Assembly: GCA_021821785.1 (NCBI GenBank)
Contig: JAKACD010000003.1
Span: 8,462 to 72,461, forward strand
Source of the DNA: Thermoplasmata archaeon
Lineage (GTDB): Archaea; Thermoplasmatota; Thermoplasmata; Lutacidiplasmatales; UBA184
Length of the DNA stretch: 64,000 bases
Reading direction: 5' to 3'
Below the pieces are notes generated by a model. That model had not been told where the DNA came from. It saw only the letters and a program-made list of their open reading frames with translations, and ran no database searches. This document shows, piece by piece, positions 22,114 through 58,000 of the stretch; the stretch's first letter is position 1; the number at the start of each line of letters is the position of its first letter. Position numbers and translations under genes: made by a program.

Positions 22114-22122
22114 GTATATAAC
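22114..22122 (-). promoter_or_regulatory. TATA box (GTTATATAC on the minus strand) for atpKEC
   Basis: An AT island ~31 nt upstream of the atpK ATG at 22083. Confidence 0.45.
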
Positions 22123-22174: not shown

Positions 22175-22666
22175 CTAAGCGGCGTCCCCTTCCGGGGACT
22201 CCGTCGGCCGCTCCTTCGCCGCGCCCTTCCCGCCCGGTCGAGGAGCGCGCACGAGCAGGATCGATCCGATCCACGCGAGCACTCCGAACGCTTCCGCGCT
22301 CGCGCAGACCACGCAGAAGGCGCCGATCTCCACGAGCTGGACGTAGAGGAAGTAGGCGGAGAAGGCGACCCCGAGCGTCGTGAGCAGGAGCAGGAGATAC
22401 GGCCAGACCCGCACCCGCGGCCGGGACTCGGCGATCCCCGCGACCACGAGGATGGCGATGAACCCCCCGACGCCGATCAGGTAGTCGGGGATGCCGAGGG
22501 TGGAGGTCTTGCCGCTCTGGTCGACGGTCGCGCAGGAGAAGAACTGGCTGATCGTGCAGAGGCTGCGGAGCGACGCTTCGTAGTACTCGAGGACCGCGAA
22601 GAACGAGATGATGAGCCCGATACCGGCGGCGAGGAAGATCAGCGACCGGATCGTTCGGGTCCGCAC
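22175..22666 (-). CDS. vitamin K epoxide reductase (VKOR) family protein
   Basis: 163 aa with four TM segments. The loop Cys pair is CTISQFFSC (C-x7-C), and the active site CVVC lies in the last TM. Confidence 0.8.
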   Translation of the reverse strand: MRTRTIRSLIFLAAGIGLIISFFAVLEYYEASLRSLCTISQFFSCATVDQSGKTSTLGIPDYLIGVGGFIAILVVAGIAESRPRVRVWPYLLLLLTTLGVAFSAYFLYVQLVEIGAFCVVCASAEAFGVLAWIGSILLVRAPRPGGKGAAKERPTESPEGDAA

Positions 22667-22687
22667 GGTTCGTTCCTACCCGGGGGC

Positions 22688-23887
22688 CTAGTGGATGGCC
22701 GCCACGTCGGCCGAGACGGCGCTCGCGGTCGCCGTAGACCAGCCATACTGGCTCGCGAGCGTGGTCACCGGCTCCCCGGACGCCTTCGCGATGAACGCCA
22801 TGGTCCACCAGGTCTGGCCCTGGACGACGAGCCACGCGCTGCCGGCCGCGGTATCCTCGCCCGCCACCTGGGCCGCGACCGTCGAGGGGGCCATCGGCTG
22901 GCCCCCCGGACGGAGGTCGCTCGGGTTGATGAGCGAACTGCCGCCGTGGACGTACTGGCCGTTCACGACCACGAACGGGATCGAGTTCCCGCTGTAGGCC
23001 GTGACATACGCCTGCTGCACGCAGCCCGCGGTCCCGGGGAACTGCCCGTCGACCCCCGAAGTGTCCTCGCTGACCTGGAACACCGCGGTCGGCGAGGTCG
23101 TCTGGACATAGGCCAGCACCATCTCCGGGGTGTTCGGATAAACGTCGTTGGGGCTCGAGGAACCGAGCTGGGCTCCCGGTACGAGGGTCGTGGACGAAGG
23201 ATTCGATTTGTGGCCGGGCTCGTAGTTGCTGAGCGCGGCCCAGACCGCCCAGCTGCTCGCCGAGCAGTACGGGCACCACGTAGCGCCGTAGAAATAGACG
23301 ACGGGCTCGCCGCCCTGCTGCCAGGGGGCGACCCCGACGGACGTCCAGCCGTCGGATTGGGAGGTCGTGGTCGCGGGGAGGAACGGACAGCCGAAGAAGG
23401 CGACGCCCCCGACCGCGATGAGGGCCGAGAAGACCAGTCCGAGGACCACGCCCGAGATGACCGTGCCCCGGAGCACCTTGCTCCACCGCGGTCCGCTCTG
23501 TCGCCAGAGGGCGAAGACGAGGAGGAACGCCACGACGGCGAAGGCGAGGGCGAGCCAGGGGATCGCCGGCAGCACGAGGCCGATCGGCGAAGGGACGAGG
23601 TAGGCGAACAGGAACCAGAGTCCGAAGACCGGTGTCAAAAGGAACCCGTACCGCTTCAGGGTCCAGCGCTGCTCGAGCTCGTCCGTCGCGCGCTTCGAGA
23701 CCTTCTTCTCGACCGGCGGGCCCTGGCGGGCCTCTCGGGAGCGACGGTGATGGTAGAGGGTGCGCAGCGCGCGCCCGGGATGGACCATCGCGGCGTCCGG
23801 GTGGAAGCCGACCTTCGCGTCGTCCGCGATCCGGTCCCACTCCCAGCCCTTCTCCCGAAGCTCCTCCACTCGGTCCCAGTCGACCAC
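22688..23887 (-). CDS. membrane-anchored DUF929 thioredoxin-like protein (paralogue 1)
   Basis: 399 aa with a cytoplasmic N-domain and three TM segments. The extracytoplasmic domain carries GATWCPYCSASSWAVWAAL and VVNGQYVHGGSSL, the DUF929 pattern. Confidence 0.75.
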   Translation of the reverse strand: MVDWDRVEELREKGWEWDRIADDAKVGFHPDAAMVHPGRALRTLYHHRRSREARQGPPVEKKVSKRATDELEQRWTLKRYGFLLTPVFGLWFLFAYLVPSPIGLVLPAIPWLALAFAVVAFLLVFALWRQSGPRWSKVLRGTVISGVVLGLVFSALIAVGGVAFFGCPFLPATTTSQSDGWTSVGVAPWQQGGEPVVYFYGATWCPYCSASSWAVWAALSNYEPGHKSNPSSTTLVPGAQLGSSSPNDVYPNTPEMVLAYVQTTSPTAVFQVSEDTSGVDGQFPGTAGCVQQAYVTAYSGNSIPFVVVNGQYVHGGSSLINPSDLRPGGQPMAPSTVAAQVAGEDTAAGSAWLVVQGQTWWTMAFIAKASGEPVTTLASQYGWSTATASAVSADVAAIH

Positions 23888-23959
23888 GGCCCTCTGAGCC
23901 GGGACCCCCTCTTCCCTTTTTGCCCCCCGGACCGCCGACCCGCGGCCGCAGGCGAGCCG

Positions 23960-25123
23960 CTAGTGGATCTGCGCGAGGTCCGCGCTGACCGCTGCCTGCG
24001 TGGCGGCCGACCAGTGGTAGGTCGCGGCGTACTCCCCGACCGTACCCCCGAGGGACCGGACCAGGATCGCCATTGCCCACCACGCCGGTTCCTCTACCGC
24101 CTGCCACGGCGTTCCGTTCTCCCCCAGCACCGAGGTGTAGACCGCCTGCGTTCCGCCTTGGGCGCCGTTCGCCCACGGGGCCAGGGCGCTCGCCGCCAGG
24201 AGCGAGGAACCCCCGTGGACGAACTGCCCGTTGACGACCAGGAACGGGATCGCGCCGCCCGAATAGGCGTTGAAGTACGCCTTCTGGTAGCAGTTCGACG
24301 GGCTCGGGAAATGCTGCACGACGCCCGAGAGGTCTTCGGAGACCTGGAGGGAGAGGAGCGAGGAGGAGAACGGGAGCCCGGCGAGGATCACCTCCGGGAT
24401 CCCGCCCTCGGCCGAGTAGCCCATCGTGGGCACCGGAGCCGGGCTCGTGGGGTCGAAGGCAACGAGCGCTTTCCAGATCGCCCAACTGCTCGCCGAGCAG
24501 TACGGACACCAGCTGGCCCCGTAGTAGTAGACCACGGGTCGCCCTCCCTCCTGCCAGGGGGCGGCGCCGACCGACGTCCAGCCCGCCGGTTGGGAGGTCG
24601 CGCTCGCCGCGGACGGGAGGTAAGGGCAACCGAAGAAGAGGATCCCACCGAGGGCGATGAGCCCCGAGATGACGAGCCCGAGCACGACCCCGATGACCAC
24701 GGTGGCGCGGAACGCCGGCGACCACCGCGGACCCCCGGCCCGCCAGAGACCGAAGACGAGCAGGAACGCTGCGACGGCGAGGGCGAGCGCGAGGTACGGG
24801 ACCGCGGCGAGCACCAGCCCGATGGGCGAGGGGACCAGGAAGGCGAGCGTGAACCAGATCGCGAAGATCGGAGTCAGTAGGTATCCGATCCGCGAGAGGG
24901 TCCAGCGAGACTCCCGCGCTTCTCGCGCCCGCCGGGATACGGCGGGGGCCTCGGTCGGACGCCGTCGCGCCCGCGAGCGCTCCCGCTGGTACAGGCCCCG
25001 AAGCGCGAGCCCCGGGTCGTGGACCGAGGGGTCGGGATGGAAGCCGACCTTGGTATCGGCCGCGATGCGGTCCCAACCCCATCCGCGCGACCGGAGCTCC
25101 CGGACCCGGTCGAAGTCGACCAT
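23960..25123 (-). CDS. membrane-anchored DUF929 thioredoxin-like protein (paralogue 2)
   Basis: 387 aa, colinear with 22688..23887 (GASWCPYCSASSWAIWKAL, VVNGQFVHGGSSL, and the same N- and C-termini). Confidence 0.75.
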   Translation of the reverse strand: MVDFDRVRELRSRGWGWDRIAADTKVGFHPDPSVHDPGLALRGLYQRERSRARRRPTEAPAVSRRAREARESRWTLSRIGYLLTPIFAIWFTLAFLVPSPIGLVLAAVPYLALALAVAAFLLVFGLWRAGGPRWSPAFRATVVIGVVLGLVISGLIALGGILFFGCPYLPSAASATSQPAGWTSVGAAPWQEGGRPVVYYYGASWCPYCSASSWAIWKALVAFDPTSPAPVPTMGYSAEGGIPEVILAGLPFSSSLLSLQVSEDLSGVVQHFPSPSNCYQKAYFNAYSGGAIPFLVVNGQFVHGGSSLLAASALAPWANGAQGGTQAVYTSVLGENGTPWQAVEEPAWWAMAILVRSLGGTVGEYAATYHWSAATQAAVSADLAQIH

Positions 25124-25255
25124 CGCAGCCCTAGCGGGACCGGGCCCCTCTTCCTGTTTCAGTTCAGGGAAGTTGACCTCGCGGGACGTCCGGAGGCGGG
25201 ACGTCTGGGCCGGCCTCCCCTCCTCCTTTTAGACGGCGACGAGTGCCACCGGGCG

Positions 25256-56203: not shown

Positions 56204-58000
56204 TCAGTGAAGCGAGACCGAGTAGACCGCGAGCACGAGGGAGAGCGAGGTCGCAGGGAGATCGAACGTGACGGTGCCGAGTGGGCCGTTCGGCTCAAAC
56301 GGTCCGACACACGCAGCCGAGGTGAGGGGAGCGCACGAGACGTACGGCGCAATCGTTGGCACGCCTTTGAAGTAGTGAAGCCATGCATAGGCGTACGGCG
56401 TCTGGAACTTCATGACCAAGGGGTGGTGGTGGGGATCCAGGACCCACCCGAAACCGGGGAAGGAGTACCGGGAGGCCGCCACGAGGTGGAGGGAGACCGC
56501 GGCCATTCCGATCCCGCTCTCGCTCCCCACGAGGTTCAGGAACGCCGGGATGACCACCGTCGCGGCCCCGTACGCATACGAGATGGCCGGTGGGTCGATC
56601 ATGATTGGGTACCCCCCTGGCTGCGCGTAGATCACCGCCCCCTGATCGAACGCGACGTCCGCTGCCGGGGCGTAGGTGTTCGCCATACGAACGAGGAGGC
56701 TGGCGGCGTAGACGCTGGCCCCGCCACCGGGATACTGAGCGAAATAGATGCAGGCGTACGGGGTCGGAGTGTTGTAGATCACATTCCAGCCGCCTAGGAT
56801 CGCCGTGTTGTTGTAGACCGTGTTGTTGTAGGAAACCGTTCCCGACTCCTTACTTCGGGTGAGGGGCCCCACGGAGTCGGTGCTCGAGACATTGCCGTAC
56901 GGGCAGAATGGCTCGGTCGGGTTCTCCGCGTTAAAGCCGGTCCACCACACGGAGTAGGCCCCGCCCGTTCCCGGATTGAACGTGTCGTTCGAACCCCAGC
57001 CCGAGACGTAGACGTTGTTGCTGAACCCGTTCGTCGTGGAGAGAGTGACCGTGTCGTGGTCACCGACCATCCGAACGGTCACGGTAGAGCCGGAGGTAGC
57101 GTTGAGGTTCACGTCGTCGTAGTTCCCGATCACGGTCAGGTTCTGGGTCGCTCCGCCCGCGGCGTTGATCCAAGCGGTGTTGTTGTTCCCCACGATTTGG
57201 ATGTTCTCGAACCCCTTTCCCCCGTTCCCGGTCACGTCCACGATGATAAGCGAATTGTTCGCCGAGTAGTTGAGCGTCAGGTCGGCGCCGCCCGTTCCCG
57301 ACAGGTGGAAGAGGATGACGCCGCCTTGGTTCGTGAAGTTATAGGTGACGTTCGCACCCCCCGTGCAGTCAAAGTTCGGATAAGGGCCCGTACAGCCGGC
57401 CGGCGTCCCCGTTCCGGCAATCCACCCGGTCGGCGGCCCGTATCGGGTGCTGACGACACCGAAACTCACGTTCGCCGGTGGCTCGAACGGGATGGAGGAG
57501 ACCGTCGCGCCATCGGGGGCCGCGAACGGAGGTGCCCCCTCGGAGCCCAGCGCGATGGCCTGGACGGAGGGGGCTCCCGCAGGGCCACCGCGGGCAATGC
57601 CGTTCAAGACCGCCTGAAAGTGACCCAGCTGGTTCTCGACCGCGATCTCGTGGTTGAGGTCGTTGACCGACATCTGGGCGGGAAGGGTCGTCGCAAGGTA
57701 GTTCGCGATCACCGTCACGACGAGCAAAAGCCCTAGGATGGTCGCCACCGGTGCGACCTGGGCCTTACGGGCATGCCGGCGCCACTTCCTCGCCGGGGCA
57801 CGACGCGACGCGGGGCGGTGCGGCCCTCGAGCCTTCTCTGCCGAGCGAACCGCCCGGTCCGGTCGAAACGGAGGCGGTCTTGAGTGGGCGATGCGGACCA
57901 CATGGGGAGACGCGTGGGCGGATGCCACCTCGGGTCGGGCGAGACGGATCCGTCGAGCGACGGGCTCGGGCGTGGCCCGAGGGATGCGGATACGATGCAT
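56204..58000 (-). CDS. secreted/surface protein with an archaeal class III (type IV pilin-like) signal motif and a beta-helix-like, sequon-rich ectodomain
   Basis: Only the C-terminal ~600 aa of tracked ORF 56204..59764 are taken as real. RKAQVAPVATILGLLLVVTVIANY matches [KR][GA][Q..][V..] plus a hydrophobic stretch. Repeats include LTLNYSANNSLIIVDVTGNGG.../NLTVIGNYDDVNLNATSGSTVTVRMVGDHDTVTL, and there are at least 12 N-x-S/T sequons. The start is uncertain: ATG at 58000 with a TATA-like TCTTAATAC ~35 nt upstream, or GTG at 57748. Confidence 0.6.
   Translation of the reverse strand: MHRIRIPRATPEPVARRIRLARPEVASAHASPHVVRIAHSRPPPFRPDRAVRSAEKARGPHRPASRRAPARKWRRHARKAQVAPVATILGLLLVVTVIANYLATTLPAQMSVNDLNHEIAVENQLGHFQAVLNGIARGGPAGAPSVQAIALGSEGAPPFAAPDGATVSSIPFEPPANVSFGVVSTRYGPPTGWIAGTGTPAGCTGPYPNFDCTGGANVTYNFTNQGGVILFHLSGTGGADLTLNYSANNSLIIVDVTGNGGKGFENIQIVGNNNTAWINAAGGATQNLTVIGNYDDVNLNATSGSTVTVRMVGDHDTVTLSTTNGFSNNVYVSGWGSNDTFNPGTGGAYSVWWTGFNAENPTEPFCPYGNVSSTDSVGPLTRSKESGTVSYNNTVYNNTAILGGWNVIYNTPTPYACIYFAQYPGGGASVYAASLLVRMANTYAPAADVAFDQGAVIYAQPGGYPIMIDPPAISYAYGAATVVIPAFLNLVGSESGIGMAAVSLHLVAASRYSFPGFGWVLDPHHHPLVMKFQTPYAYAWLHYFKGVPTIAPYVSCAPLTSAACVGPFEPNGPLGTVTFDLPATSLSLVLAVYSVSLH

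What the first reader, a model, noticed from the sequence alone, without database searches (positions are those of the whole stretch)
22175..25123. VKOR plus two tandem membrane-anchored DUF929 thioredoxin-like paralogues: candidate archaeal extracytoplasmic disulfide-bond module
The VKOR homologue has the C-x7-C loop pair (CTISQFFSC) and a CVVC active site. Immediately upstream on the same strand, at gaps of 21 and 72 nt, lie two colinear paralogues. Each has a conserved cytoplasmic N-domain, MVD(W/F)DRV.ELR..GW.WDRIA.D.KVGFHPD, and three TM helices followed by FFGCP(F/Y)LP. Each also has an outward thioredoxin-like domain with (T/S)WCPYCSASSWA(V/I)W and VVNGQ(Y/F)VHGGSSL, and ends in AVSAD(V/L)A(A/Q)IH. 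In bacteria VKOR replaces DsbB and oxidises a DsbA-like partner. Here DUF929 proteins appear to fill the DsbA role, in duplicate, and carry an extra conserved cytoplasmic domain of unknown function. I am not aware of a described VKOR-DUF929 system in archaea. The lower-GC secreted protein at 56204-58000 contains several Cys residues and is one possible substrate class.
Basis: partly seen in the sequence, partly recalled or inferred. Interest (0 to 1): 0.6.

Follow-up and report, generated by a model that had tools for sequence, protein, structure and literature searches.

The report
Archaeal VKOR with DUF929 disulfide partners
An uncultured soil archaeon (class Thermoplasmata) encodes a membrane quinone enzyme (VKOR) behind two copies of an outward-facing, membrane-anchored thioredoxin-like protein of the uncharacterised DUF929 family; this is very probably its machinery for putting disulfide bonds into exported proteins, and each partner also carries a small, highly conserved cytoplasmic "cap" domain of unknown function.

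Summary
Three co-directional minus-strand genes encode DUF929_A, DUF929_B (55% identical to A) and a 4-TM VKOR.

The interpretation, a DsbA/DsbB-like extracytoplasmic oxidative-folding module, is well supported by comparative evidence:
- DUF929 followed by VKOR is the arrangement in 20/20 and 72/76 informative relatives' loci.
- The CPYC cysteines, the cis-Pro and all four VKOR cysteines are invariant.
- Charge distribution places both active sites outside the cell.
- The genome lacks DsbA, DsbB and CcdA but has quinol oxidases.
- Its predicted exported proteins favour even cysteine counts.
- DUF929 genes in VKOR-less Thermoplasmatales have almost all lost the second active-site cysteine (CPIG or SPIG).

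- The tandem duplication is confined to a small clade.
- Other Thermoplasmata families place a zinc-finger–TM–TlpA-like thioredoxin in front of VKOR instead.
- The N-terminal domain is the most conserved part of the protein. It is a swappable cytoplasmic cap, also found on other outward-facing proteins (a thioredoxin-like one and two cysteine-bearing ones), and it is interchangeable with a C2H2 zinc finger.

I found no published description in the library searched. No biochemistry exists. Verdict: a new variant of a known kind; interest about 0.6.

The parts
23960..25123 (-). DUF929_A: cytoplasmic cap, 3 TM helices and an outward thioredoxin-like DUF929 domain (upstream paralogue)
   Evidence: ORF. 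Pfam DUF929 E=1.1e-6. 55% identical to B. Groups with the upstream copies of L043 and L086 in the tree, support 100/99.
24959..25123 (-). N-terminal cytoplasmic cap of A (residues 1-55)
   Evidence: Translation. Matches the cap HMM at E=5.7e-32.
24629..24892 (-). Three TM helices of A
   Evidence: Hydropathy. Translation.
24497..24508 (-). CPYC active-site motif of A
   Evidence: Invariant in 100 family members.
22688..23887 (-). DUF929_B: the same architecture, the VKOR-adjacent paralogue
   Evidence: ORF. Pfam DUF929 E=4.2e-9. AF2 mean pLDDT 87.8.
23723..23887 (-). N-terminal cytoplasmic cap of B (three helices, residues 1-55)
   Evidence: AF2 pLDDT about 96 within the full-length model. Most conserved region of the protein, column identity 0.86. 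No Pfam, NCBIfam or PDB relative.
23390..23653 (-). Three TM helices of B, with a PSPIG outer turn and a basic inner loop
   Evidence: The inner loop WRQSGPRWSKVLRGT carries 4 K/R.
22691..23389 (-). Outward DUF929 thioredoxin-like domain of B. It holds CPYC (23264-23275), cis-Pro304 and the co-varying Cys167/Cys289.
   Evidence: Only 3 K/R in 234 residues. Invariant C205, C208 and I303-P304. AF2 pLDDT 94-98 from residue 241 on, with blocks of about 82-84 at residues 221-240.
22175..22666 (-). VKOR: a 4-TM quinone-dependent disulfide generator
   Evidence: Pfam PF07884 E=1.4e-22. Aligns to Synechococcus VKOR 4nv6/3kp9 at E=2e-7.
22532..22558 (-). VKOR outer-loop cysteine pair C37-x7-C45 (CTISQFFSC)
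   Evidence: Both Cys and Ser51 are invariant in 95 family VKORs.
22304..22315 (-). VKOR CVVC active site at the outer end of TM4
   Evidence: The CxxC is kept in 94/95 family VKORs; the exception is a gap in the alignment.
22115..22121 (-). TTATATA box ahead of atpK. It marks the 3' boundary of the DUF929-DUF929-VKOR unit.
   Evidence: Sequence.

Best explanation
The three genes form an extracytoplasmic oxidative protein-folding module.

Proposed mechanism:
- Each DUF929 protein sits in the membrane with its N-terminal cap in the cytoplasm, three TM helices, and a thioredoxin-fold domain outside the cell.
- The domain's oxidised CPYC disulfide is passed to cysteine pairs of proteins emerging from the membrane. 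This is the DsbA role.
- The reduced CPYC is re-oxidised by the outer-loop cysteines of VKOR (C37/C45).
- Those cysteines pass the electrons to VKOR's CVVC, then to a membrane quinone, and finally to the cell's quinol or terminal oxidases. This is the DsbB role.
- The two paralogues most likely serve different substrate sets.

What is shown here by computation:
- gene identity
- conserved synteny
- invariance of the active sites
- predicted topology
- absence of alternative Dsb components
- presence of oxidases
- even-cysteine bias in predicted exported proteins

What is inferred:
- the direction of electron flow
- the direct DUF929-VKOR thiol exchange
- the specialisation of the paralogues

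What is unknown:
- what the cytoplasmic cap does
For: 1. Synteny.
- In the window's GTDB-level family, 23 of 24 sampled genomes have both genes.
- DUF929 lies immediately upstream of VKOR on the same strand in 20/20 fetched loci.
- The same holds in 72 of 80 named Thermoplasmata MAG loci. Four of the eight exceptions are contig ends, and two are second copies in genomes that already have a pair.
- Across 201 genomes of the class, the presence of both genes is associated. The 2x2 table is 24/21/19/137, odds ratio 8.2. This is not corrected for phylogeny.

2. Active sites.
- C205, C208 and cis-Pro304 are invariant in 100 DUF929 sequences.
- VKOR C37, C45 and S51 are invariant and the C118xxC121 motif is kept in 94/95 family VKORs.

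3. Loss correlates with loss.
- I examined 28 DUF929 genes from 19 VKOR-less genomes of the class (Picrophilus/Ferroplasma-type families plus a Methanomassiliicoccales-labelled MAG).
- Of these, 24 read CP(I/F)G, 2 read SP(I/F)G and only 2 keep CPYC.

4. Analogy within the class.
- In at least 18 of the 20 VKOR loci fetched from the class's other families, VKOR is preceded by a thioredoxin-like gene headed by a zinc finger.
- In 17 of them this is a C2H2 zinc finger, one TM helix and an AhpC/TSA-Redoxin thioredoxin domain with a CxxC.
- In the eighteenth, G128, it is a zinc finger, 3 TM helices and a DUF929 domain.

5. Topology.
- DUF929_B: the N-region has 17 K/R in 78 aa, the TM2-TM3 loop has 4 K/R, and the C-domain has 3 K/R in 234 aa.
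- VKOR: N-terminus, the TM2-3 loop and the C-terminus are basic, while the Cys loop is not.
- The AF2 model shows 3 TM helices and a confident thioredoxin core.
- Picrophilus DUF929 proteins were found in an experimental secretome (PMC8345856). L121 is a Picrophilus oshimae DUF929.

6. No alternative components. The genome has no DsbD/CcdA, DsbB or DsbA-like Thioredoxin_4.

7. An electron sink exists. The genome encodes cytochrome bd and CoxI plus CtaA.

8. Substrates.
- Predicted exported proteins are biased to even Cys counts: 17 even to 6 odd, against 319 to 471 for cytoplasmic proteins, Fisher p=0.002.
- The bias holds in all six parameter sets tried, p=0.047 to 0.0007.

9. Fold. The top Foldseek PDB hits of the model are DsbA proteins, but they are not significant.
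Against: - There is no experimental evidence for any DUF929 or Thermoplasmata VKOR.
- The structural match to DsbA is not significant (E of 0.15 or worse; TM-score normalised to the target 0.33-0.37). The extra helices are C-terminal rather than a DsbA-type insertion.
- The Pfam DUF929 match covers only about a third of the model.
- Two VKOR-less genomes keep a CPYC-type DUF929 with no obvious membrane partner nearby. VKOR is therefore not the only possible context for a dithiol DUF929.
- The even-Cys test rests on a crude home-made gene caller and signal-anchor detector, and the exported sets are small (24-57 proteins).
- The synteny counts come from closely related lineages. They are not independent events.
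- The topology is a charge-rule and AF2 inference, not a dedicated predictor or an experiment.
Confidence: 0.72

Rival explanations
1. The DUF929 proteins are outward-facing reductases or isomerases, like ResA, CcmG, TlpA or DsbC. They keep particular cysteines reduced, for example for haem or copper insertion into oxidases. VKOR is merely co-located.
For: In other Thermoplasmata families the VKOR-linked thioredoxin domain is of the AhpC/TSA-Redoxin (TlpA-like) type, which is usually reductive in bacteria. In G128, VKOR is followed by a CtaA-like gene. CPYC is also the glutaredoxin motif (own knowledge; a weak hit to a 'CPYC type' glutaredoxin appears).
Against: The genome has no CcdA/DsbD to bring electrons out of the cell. 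VKOR chemistry removes electrons from thiols to quinone (established for bacterial and archaeal VKORs; PMC4555120, PMC13486548). The strict gene coupling to VKOR argues for an oxidative partnership, as does the loss of the resolving Cys wherever VKOR is absent. CPYC is also the active site of Staphylococcus aureus DsbA (own knowledge).
Confidence: 0.1
2. These proteins are trans-membrane redox sensors or regulators. The outward CxxC reports the envelope's thiol-redox state. The conserved cytoplasmic cap, which other lineages replace with a zinc finger or a winged HTH, transmits that state to DNA or to a cytoplasmic partner. Bulk oxidative folding is not the main job.
For: The cap is the most conserved part of the protein. 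Equivalent positions are held by a C2H2 zinc finger or a bona fide winged HTH, PF14947, E=2e-6, in P0169. The cap also heads other outward-facing proteins, one thioredoxin-like and two cysteine-bearing.
Against: The cap has no detectable similarity to any DNA-binding family. A sensor role does not explain the obligatory pairing with a disulfide generator. The even-Cys bias shows that the cell does make exported disulfides, and there is no other candidate oxidase. The two roles are not mutually exclusive.
Confidence: 0.12
3. The adjacency reflects only shared regulation or inheritance in one lineage. DUF929 is a non-catalytic envelope protein (structural or chaperone) unrelated to VKOR function.
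For: Most canonical DUF929 proteins (Picrophilus and Ferroplasma type) lack a CxxC and live without VKOR, so the fold can evidently serve a non-dithiol role.
Against: The CxxC and cis-Pro are invariant exactly in the VKOR-linked subfamily. The pairing is also seen in a second family with a different cap (G128). Whole DUF929-VKOR pairs are duplicated together (L024).
Confidence: 0.05

Closest known systems
Mycobacterium tuberculosis VKOR (Rv2968c) with its separately encoded, membrane-tethered DsbA-like partner (Rv2969c); actinobacterial MdbA-VKOR
   Same: A stand-alone VKOR is encoded next to a membrane-anchored, outward-facing thioredoxin-fold CxxC protein. The presumed flow is substrate thiols to the thioredoxin-like protein, then VKOR, then quinone (own knowledge; PMC3853704 and PMC9974433 describe these partners).
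   Different: The partner here is DUF929, not a DsbA-family protein: there was no DSBA or Thioredoxin_4 hit. It has three TM helices plus a conserved cytoplasmic cap. VKOR has 4 TM helices rather than 5. The organism is an archaeon.
Synechococcus VKOR-thioredoxin fusion (PDB 3KP9, 4NV2, 4NV5, 4NV6) and plant LTO1
   Same: This is the closest solved VKOR (E=2e-7). It has the same loop-Cys pair plus a CxxC in TM4, and a dedicated thioredoxin-like domain held next to VKOR by a TM helix.
   Different: Here the thioredoxin-like domain is a separate polypeptide of a different family. The loop spacing is C-x7-C rather than C-x5-C in the family.
Aeropyrum pernix VKORo/VKORi (crenarchaeal VKORs; Hatahet & Ruddock 2013; Hibender et al. 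2017, cited in PMC13486548)
   Same: These are archaeal VKORs shown to support disulfide formation when expressed in E. coli. The outward form has the same predicted orientation as the VKOR here.
   Different: As far as I could check, no dedicated archaeal partner was described there. The 2017 paper was not available to read. The present VKOR is from Thermoplasmata and is hard-wired to DUF929.
Staphylococcus aureus DsbA (CPYC active site; PDB 3BCI family)
   Same: The same CPYC tetrapeptide in an outward, membrane-associated oxidase. It gave a weak profile hit over the active-site strand and helix (E=1.5).
   Different: There is no significant overall sequence or structure similarity. S. aureus DsbA works without a DsbB or VKOR (own knowledge).
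Pfam DUF929 (PF06053), placed in the thioredoxin-like clan by Pawlowski et al. 2010 (PMC3091736)
   Same: Both window proteins pass the family cut-off.
   Different: Only profile positions of about 9-74 of 205 match. The canonical members examined here (Picrophilus and Ferroplasma type) mostly have CPIG or SPIG instead of CPYC, one TM helix and no cap.

Membership tests
VKOR (Pfam PF07884) | Profile match above the curated cut-off | tested here: met
   80.7 bits against a cut-off of 27.5, E=1.4e-22, covering profile positions 2-131 of 134.
VKOR (Pfam PF07884) | Four-helix core with a loop Cys pair, a conserved loop Ser/Thr and a CxxC in TM4 | tested here: met
   C37, C45, S51 and C118-x-x-C121 are present and conserved in 95 relatives. 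Hydropathy gives four segments. The protein aligns to 3KP9.
VKOR (Pfam PF07884) | Outward orientation of the active site (as against the inverted A. pernix VKORi) | tested here: met
   Positive-inside rule: the N-terminus has 3 K/R in 8 aa, the TM2-3 loop 3 in 11, the C-tail 5 in 26, and the Cys loop 2 in 36. This is a prediction only.
VKOR (Pfam PF07884) | Quinone-dependent thiol oxidase activity | not testable with these tools
   Needs biochemistry or complementation.
DUF929 (Pfam PF06053) | Profile match above the curated cut-off | tested here: met
   36.8 and 28.9 bits against a cut-off of 24.6, but only the N-terminal third of the model matches.
Thioredoxin-fold thiol:disulfide oxidoreductase | A beta-alpha-beta unit with CxxC at the helix N-terminus and a cis-Pro loop before beta3 | tested here: met
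   AF2 gives strand 194-202, CPYC at 205-208, helix 206-220, I303-P304 and strand 305-308, with pLDDT of 94-98 in all these 10-residue blocks. These residues are invariant.
DsbA family (PF01323 / PF13462) | Sequence membership | tested here: not met
   No DSBA or Thioredoxin_4 hit at E<=0.1. A profile search against PDB gives DsbA only at E of about 1.5.
DsbA family (PF01323 / PF13462) | Thioredoxin fold with a helical domain inserted between beta3 and alpha2 | tested here: inconclusive
   DsbA structures are the top Foldseek hits, but at E=0.15-0.3. The predicted insert at 226-285 is beta-rich, and the helices are C-terminal at 322-397.
DsbA-like function (oxidant of exported proteins, recycled by a membrane quinone reductase) | Dedicated genomic pairing with DsbB or VKOR, outward location, and no reductant supply | tested here: met
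   pairing; location; no CcdA, DsbB or DsbA.
DsbA-like function (oxidant of exported proteins, recycled by a membrane quinone reductase) | Oxidising redox potential; oxidase activity in vivo or in vitro | not testable with these tools
   Needs experiments.

The most novel reading that the evidence does not exclude
The cytoplasmic cap is a functional coupling device rather than a passive anchor.

Evidence for a modular, functional cap:
- Outward-facing thioredoxin-like domains in Thermoplasmata (DUF929 or TlpA-like) are systematically headed by one of two unrelated small cytoplasmic domains: the three-helix MVDWDRV...GRALR.LYHR cap described here, or a C2H2 zinc finger.
- The three-helix cap also heads two other cysteine-bearing outward proteins.
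- In a Methanomassiliicoccales-like lineage, a DUF929 domain is tailed by a winged HTH instead.
- All four cap-by-thioredoxin-domain combinations occur.
- The cap is under stronger constraint than the catalytic domain.

Proposed role: the cap links envelope thiol chemistry to a cytoplasmic partner. Either it docks the oxidase at the translocon or ribosome so that oxidation is co-translocational, or it relays the envelope redox state to gene expression as a membrane-tethered regulator.
Probability: 0.25. Interest if true: 0.8.

Novelty: new variant of a known kind. Interest (0 to 1): 0.62.

Why it matters
How archaea outside the Crenarchaeota make disulfide bonds in exported proteins is essentially undescribed.
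- A standard DsbA/DsbB search of this genome finds nothing.
- Assigning the DsbA role to DUF929 would give a function to a large orphan family. One search returned 495 close relatives.
- It would also explain how abundant soil and peat Thermoplasmata stabilise their surface proteins.

The comparative pattern offers a ready-made, testable structure-function series:
- a dithiol DUF929 wherever VKOR is present
- a CPIG or SPIG DUF929 where VKOR is absent
- a zinc-finger TlpA-like protein in front of VKOR in the sister families

The conserved, interchangeable cytoplasmic caps are an unexplained feature. I know of no counterpart in bacterial Dsb systems. They could reveal coupling between secretion, envelope redox state and the cytoplasm.

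Tried and rejected
- **Fold search, full-length model.** A Foldseek search of the AF2 model against PDB ranks DsbA proteins first, but at E=0.15 or worse. I therefore do not claim structural membership in the DsbA family.
- **Identity of the cap.** Pfam and NCBIfam gave no hit. A PDB profile search found only designed repeat proteins. The AF2 model of the cap alone has pLDDT 81, and its Foldseek search returned one hit (TbiB1 RRE, E=9.2), which is not meaningful. An HTH reading is suggested only by the sequence pattern and is not supported by any search.
- **Reductive pathway.** I looked for CcdA/DsbD and found none.
- **Partners of CPYC-type DUF929 in VKOR-less genomes (G071, G148).** Nothing convincing lies next to them.
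- **Neighbours of cap-bearing genes.** The membrane proteins next to them in L150 and L151 have no Pfam match.
- **Sulfolobales.** I could not test DUF929-VKOR adjacency there. Sulfolobus acidocaldarius has both families (controls), but word-based searches from Picrophilus-type and Methanomassiliicoccales-type queries did not reach that order.
- **Literature.** Hibender et al. 2017 on A. pernix VKOR is not held. I could not check whether it names an archaeal partner.
- **Even-Cys test.** The first version, with a strict gene filter, gave only 11 exported proteins. I reran it with wider filters and six thresholds, and I report all of them.


Full report
**What is there**

On the minus strand lie three co-directional ORFs:
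- 23960-25123: DUF929_A, 387 aa
- 22688-23887: DUF929_B, 399 aa
- 22175-22666: VKOR, 163 aa

The intergenic gaps are 72 and 21 nt.
- The last ORF is a clear VKOR: Pfam PF07884, E=1.4e-22.
- It aligns with the Synechococcus VKOR structures 4NV6 and 3KP9 at E=2e-7.
- The two upstream proteins are 55% identical over their full length.
- Both pass the DUF929 (PF06053) cut-off, but only around the WCPYC segment.
- A TTATATA box at 22115-22121 precedes atpK, so the ATP-synthase K-E-C unit downstream appears to have its own promoter. An earlier first-reader note, e1-2853090, also reports a TATA-like box for each ATP-synthase unit.

**Organism**

- Homologues are named Thermoplasmata archaeon MAGs. 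They include the UBA184 and UBA61 isolates, and several isolate names point to soil or peat surveys.
- The assembly is 1.69 Mb and 91% complete. It holds exactly two DUF929 genes and one VKOR, all at this locus.

**Anatomy of the DUF929 proteins**

An alignment of 74 homologues gave an AF2 model with mean pLDDT 87.8. Its parts are:
- A three-helix N-terminal domain (residues 1-55, pLDDT about 96), followed by a basic linker.
- Three TM helices.
- A thioredoxin-type core: strand 194-202, CPYC at 205-208 at the start of helix 206-220, a beta-rich insert, I303-P304 ahead of strand 305-308, and then C-terminal helices at 322-397.

Conservation:
- C205, C208 and P304 are invariant in 100 family sequences.
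- C167, at the exit of TM3, and C289 are present together in 95 sequences and absent together in 5.
- That fits a structural disulfide. But the five sequences lacking both form a single clade, so it amounts to about one evolutionary event.

Topology by charge:
- DUF929_B has 17 K/R in the first 78 residues and none in the PSPIG turn.
- It has 4 K/R in the TM2-TM3 loop and only 3 in the 234-residue C-domain.
- The thioredoxin domain is therefore predicted to face outwards.
- VKOR has basic N- and C-termini and a basic TM2-3 loop, so its Cys loop and CVVC also face outwards. This is the ordinary orientation, not the inverted A. pernix one.
- Independent experimental support for an outside location of the family comes from Picrophilus torridus, where DUF929 proteins were detected in the secretome (PMC8345856).
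- L121 is the Picrophilus oshimae DUF929.

**Is the pairing with VKOR more than local chance?**

In a sample of 201 Thermoplasmata genomes, VKOR occurs in 45 and DUF929 in 43.
- In the window's own family, 23 of 24 genomes have both.
- In 20 of 20 fetched loci of that family, DUF929 lies directly upstream of VKOR on the same strand.
- Among 80 named loci recovered with the DUF929 profile, 72 show the same arrangement.
- Of the eight exceptions, four are contig ends, and two (L062, L105) are second copies in genomes that already have a pair.
- All four VKOR cysteines and Ser51 are conserved across 95 family VKORs.

**Natural controls**

- *Where VKOR is absent.* These are the Picrophilus/Ferroplasma-type families plus a Methanomassiliicoccales-labelled MAG (G071). 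DUF929 there matches the Pfam model strongly, but the active site has decayed. Of 28 genes examined, 24 read CP(I/F)G, 2 read SP(I/F)G and only 2 keep CPYC.
- *Where VKOR is present but DUF929 is not detected.* This covers six other families. The gene immediately upstream of VKOR encodes a different outward thioredoxin. It consists of a C2H2-type finger (CPxCG...H...HP), one TM helix and an AhpC/TSA-Redoxin domain with a CxxC. Together with the G128 gene below, such zinc-finger-headed genes were found in at least 18 of the 20 loci fetched from families other than the window's own.
- *A hybrid.* One genome of another family (G128) has a finger, 3 TM helices and DUF929 (CPFC), followed by VKOR.

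In this class VKOR therefore nearly always travels with a dedicated, membrane-anchored, outward CxxC thioredoxin-fold protein. The dithiol form of DUF929 tracks VKOR.

**Physiological context in the window's genome**

- There is no DsbD/CcdA, no DsbB and no DsbA-like Thioredoxin_4. That leaves no known reductant supply to the outside and no alternative oxidase.
- A cytochrome bd quinol oxidase and CoxI plus CtaA are present. That implies a quinone pool and terminal oxidases able to accept VKOR's electrons.
- I ran a Dutton-style test with my own crude gene caller and signal-anchor detector. It shows an even-cysteine bias in predicted exported proteins.
- With a 16-residue hydrophobic window, the counts are 17 even to 6 odd, against 319 to 471 in cytoplasmic proteins (Fisher p=0.002).
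- All six thresholds tried gave p between 0.047 and 0.0007.

**Mechanism proposed**

The steps would be:
1. The oxidised CPYC of DUF929 donates its disulfide to emerging exported proteins.
2. VKOR's loop cysteines (C37/C45) re-oxidise the reduced CPYC.
3. Electrons pass from the loop cysteines to CVVC.
4. They then pass to quinone and on to the oxidases.

This is the logic of the M. tuberculosis VKOR/DsbA pair and of the Synechococcus VKOR-thioredoxin fusion. Here the partner comes from a family not previously given this role.

The gene identities, synteny, conservation, predicted topology and genomic context are shown by computation. The thiol exchange and its direction are inferred.

The TM region is more conserved than I would expect of a passive anchor (column identity 0.74). 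This may reflect packing against VKOR, which is speculation.

**The duplication**

- Most relatives have a single DUF929.
- In the tree, window copy A groups with the upstream copies of L043 and L086 (support 100/99).
- Copy B groups with their VKOR-adjacent copies (support 95/59).
- The duplication therefore predates these three species, and both copies have been kept.
- Independent duplications occur elsewhere. L024 has DUF929-VKOR-DUF929-VKOR.
- L036, L082, L100 and L102 have DUF929-VKOR-DUF929, and L107 has a tandem.
- Both window copies keep every invariant residue. Substrate specialisation, as with multiple DsbA paralogues in bacteria (own knowledge), is the simplest reading.

**The cytoplasmic cap**

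The cap is the least expected part.
- It is the most conserved region of the protein, with column identity 0.86 against 0.79 for the thioredoxin core.
- It has no Pfam, NCBIfam, PDB-sequence or Foldseek relative.
- In the window's genome it occurs only in these two proteins.

Across the family it also heads single-TM proteins with other outward domains:
- an AhpC/TSA-Redoxin thioredoxin with CSPC (L151, Pfam E=4e-16)
- a cysteine-rich domain with CC, CCCQC and DCC motifs (L150)
- another domain with two Cys (L152)

With the zinc-finger cap seen in sister families, all four combinations of cap (three-helix or finger) and thioredoxin domain (DUF929 or TlpA-like) exist.
- In a Methanomassiliicoccales-like lineage, an outward DUF929 (CPFC) lies between two hydrophobic segments.
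- It ends in a winged HTH: PF14947, 28.1 bits against a cut-off of 25.5.
- No VKOR is called in the roughly 5 kb flanks fetched.

So outward thioredoxin-like domains in these archaea are repeatedly joined to small cytoplasmic domains. One of these is a recognised DNA-binding-type fold. The function is unknown. Docking at the translocon and redox signalling are the two ideas I consider worth testing.

**Comparison with what is known**

- In the held literature, DUF929 appears only as a predicted thioredoxin-clan member (PMC3091736) and as a domain annotation for three hypothetical proteins in the Picrophilus secretome.
- Searches for VKOR with archaea, Sulfolobus or Aeropyrum returned no description of a DUF929 partner or of a Thermoplasmata VKOR system.
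- Archaeal VKOR work concerns A. pernix.
- Other windows of this scan have produced AI notes reporting VKOR-DUF929 pairs in other archaea and in Dormibacterota, and zinc-finger-capped redox proteins in DPANN archaea.
- These notes agree with my reading, but they are not independent evidence. I tested only the Thermoplasmata part.

**Verdict**

- It is a new variant of a known kind: a VKOR-based oxidative-folding system whose DsbA role is taken by DUF929.
- It has an added, unexplained, modular cytoplasmic cap.
- Confidence in the oxidative-folding explanation is about 0.72.
- Interest is about 0.62.

Noticed in passing
L001-L017, L020 (other Thermoplasmata families); e.g. L001:5472-6197(-), L007:4252-4968(+): In six sister families VKOR is directly preceded by a protein of about 230 aa: a C2H2-like zinc finger (CPxCG-x12-H-x4-HP), one TM helix and an AhpC/TSA-Redoxin thioredoxin domain with a CxxC. 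L007 has two such genes in tandem before VKOR.
   Followed up: partly
L150:1992-2849(+), L151:1938-2795(+), L152:2153-3046(-): The three-helix cap of the window's DUF929 proteins also heads single-TM proteins with other outward domains: a Cys-rich one (CC, WCCCQCW, DCC), a TlpA-like one (CSPC), and an unknown one with 2 Cys. The L151 gene is followed by a 354-aa polytopic membrane protein with a PCC motif and no Pfam match.
   Followed up: partly
P0169-P0171; L153:5001-6236(+): A Methanomassiliicoccales-like protein consists of a TM segment, an outward DUF929 (CPFC), a second hydrophobic segment and a C-terminal winged HTH (PF14947, E=2e-6). It is a possible membrane-bound redox-sensing regulator. 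No VKOR is called in the roughly 5 kb flanks; TatC and TatA lie about 2-3 kb away.
   Followed up: partly
L121-L148 (Picrophilus/Ferroplasma-type genomes): Canonical DUF929 proteins of VKOR-less Thermoplasmatales read SW(Y/x)GCPIGA..SW. They keep the first Cys but have Gly in place of the second, and two have SP(I/F)G. Their function as monothiol or non-redox exported proteins is unknown.
   Followed up: partly
L148/L149 (G148:C1:1735212-1735481) and L127 (G071): Two VKOR-less genomes, one of them a single-contig assembly, keep a CPYC-type single-TM DUF929 with no obvious membrane redox partner next to it. What re-oxidises it is open.
   Followed up: partly
window 25217-25230 and 23905-23921 (minus strand): Similar purine-rich elements (AAAAGGAGGAGGGG and AAAAAGGGAAGAGGGGG) lie upstream of both DUF929 paralogues. 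The duplication probably copied an upstream signal: a ribosome-binding or promoter-proximal element.
   Followed up: no
window 22115-22121 (minus strand): A TTATATA box lies between the VKOR stop codon and atpK. The ATP-synthase K-E-C unit probably has its own promoter and is not part of the disulfide operon.
   Followed up: no
L018 (G128:C87), downstream of VKOR; L016:1759-2517(-): In G128 the VKOR gene is followed by a CtaA-like (haem A synthase) gene. In G170 a CoxI gene lies about 2.5 kb from VKOR. This hints at a link between the module and terminal-oxidase biogenesis.
   Followed up: no
L049 (DAIDCO010000015.1): The record is titled 'bacterium isolate clean3188', but its DUF929-VKOR pair nests inside the Thermoplasmata clade. 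The MAG is probably mislabelled.
   Followed up: no
window 56204-~58000 (minus strand): This exported protein, in a lower-GC stretch (GC 0.66), has a basic N-terminus, a hydrophobic anchor and six cysteines. Four of them form two closely spaced pairs. It is a plausible substrate of the module.
   Followed up: partly
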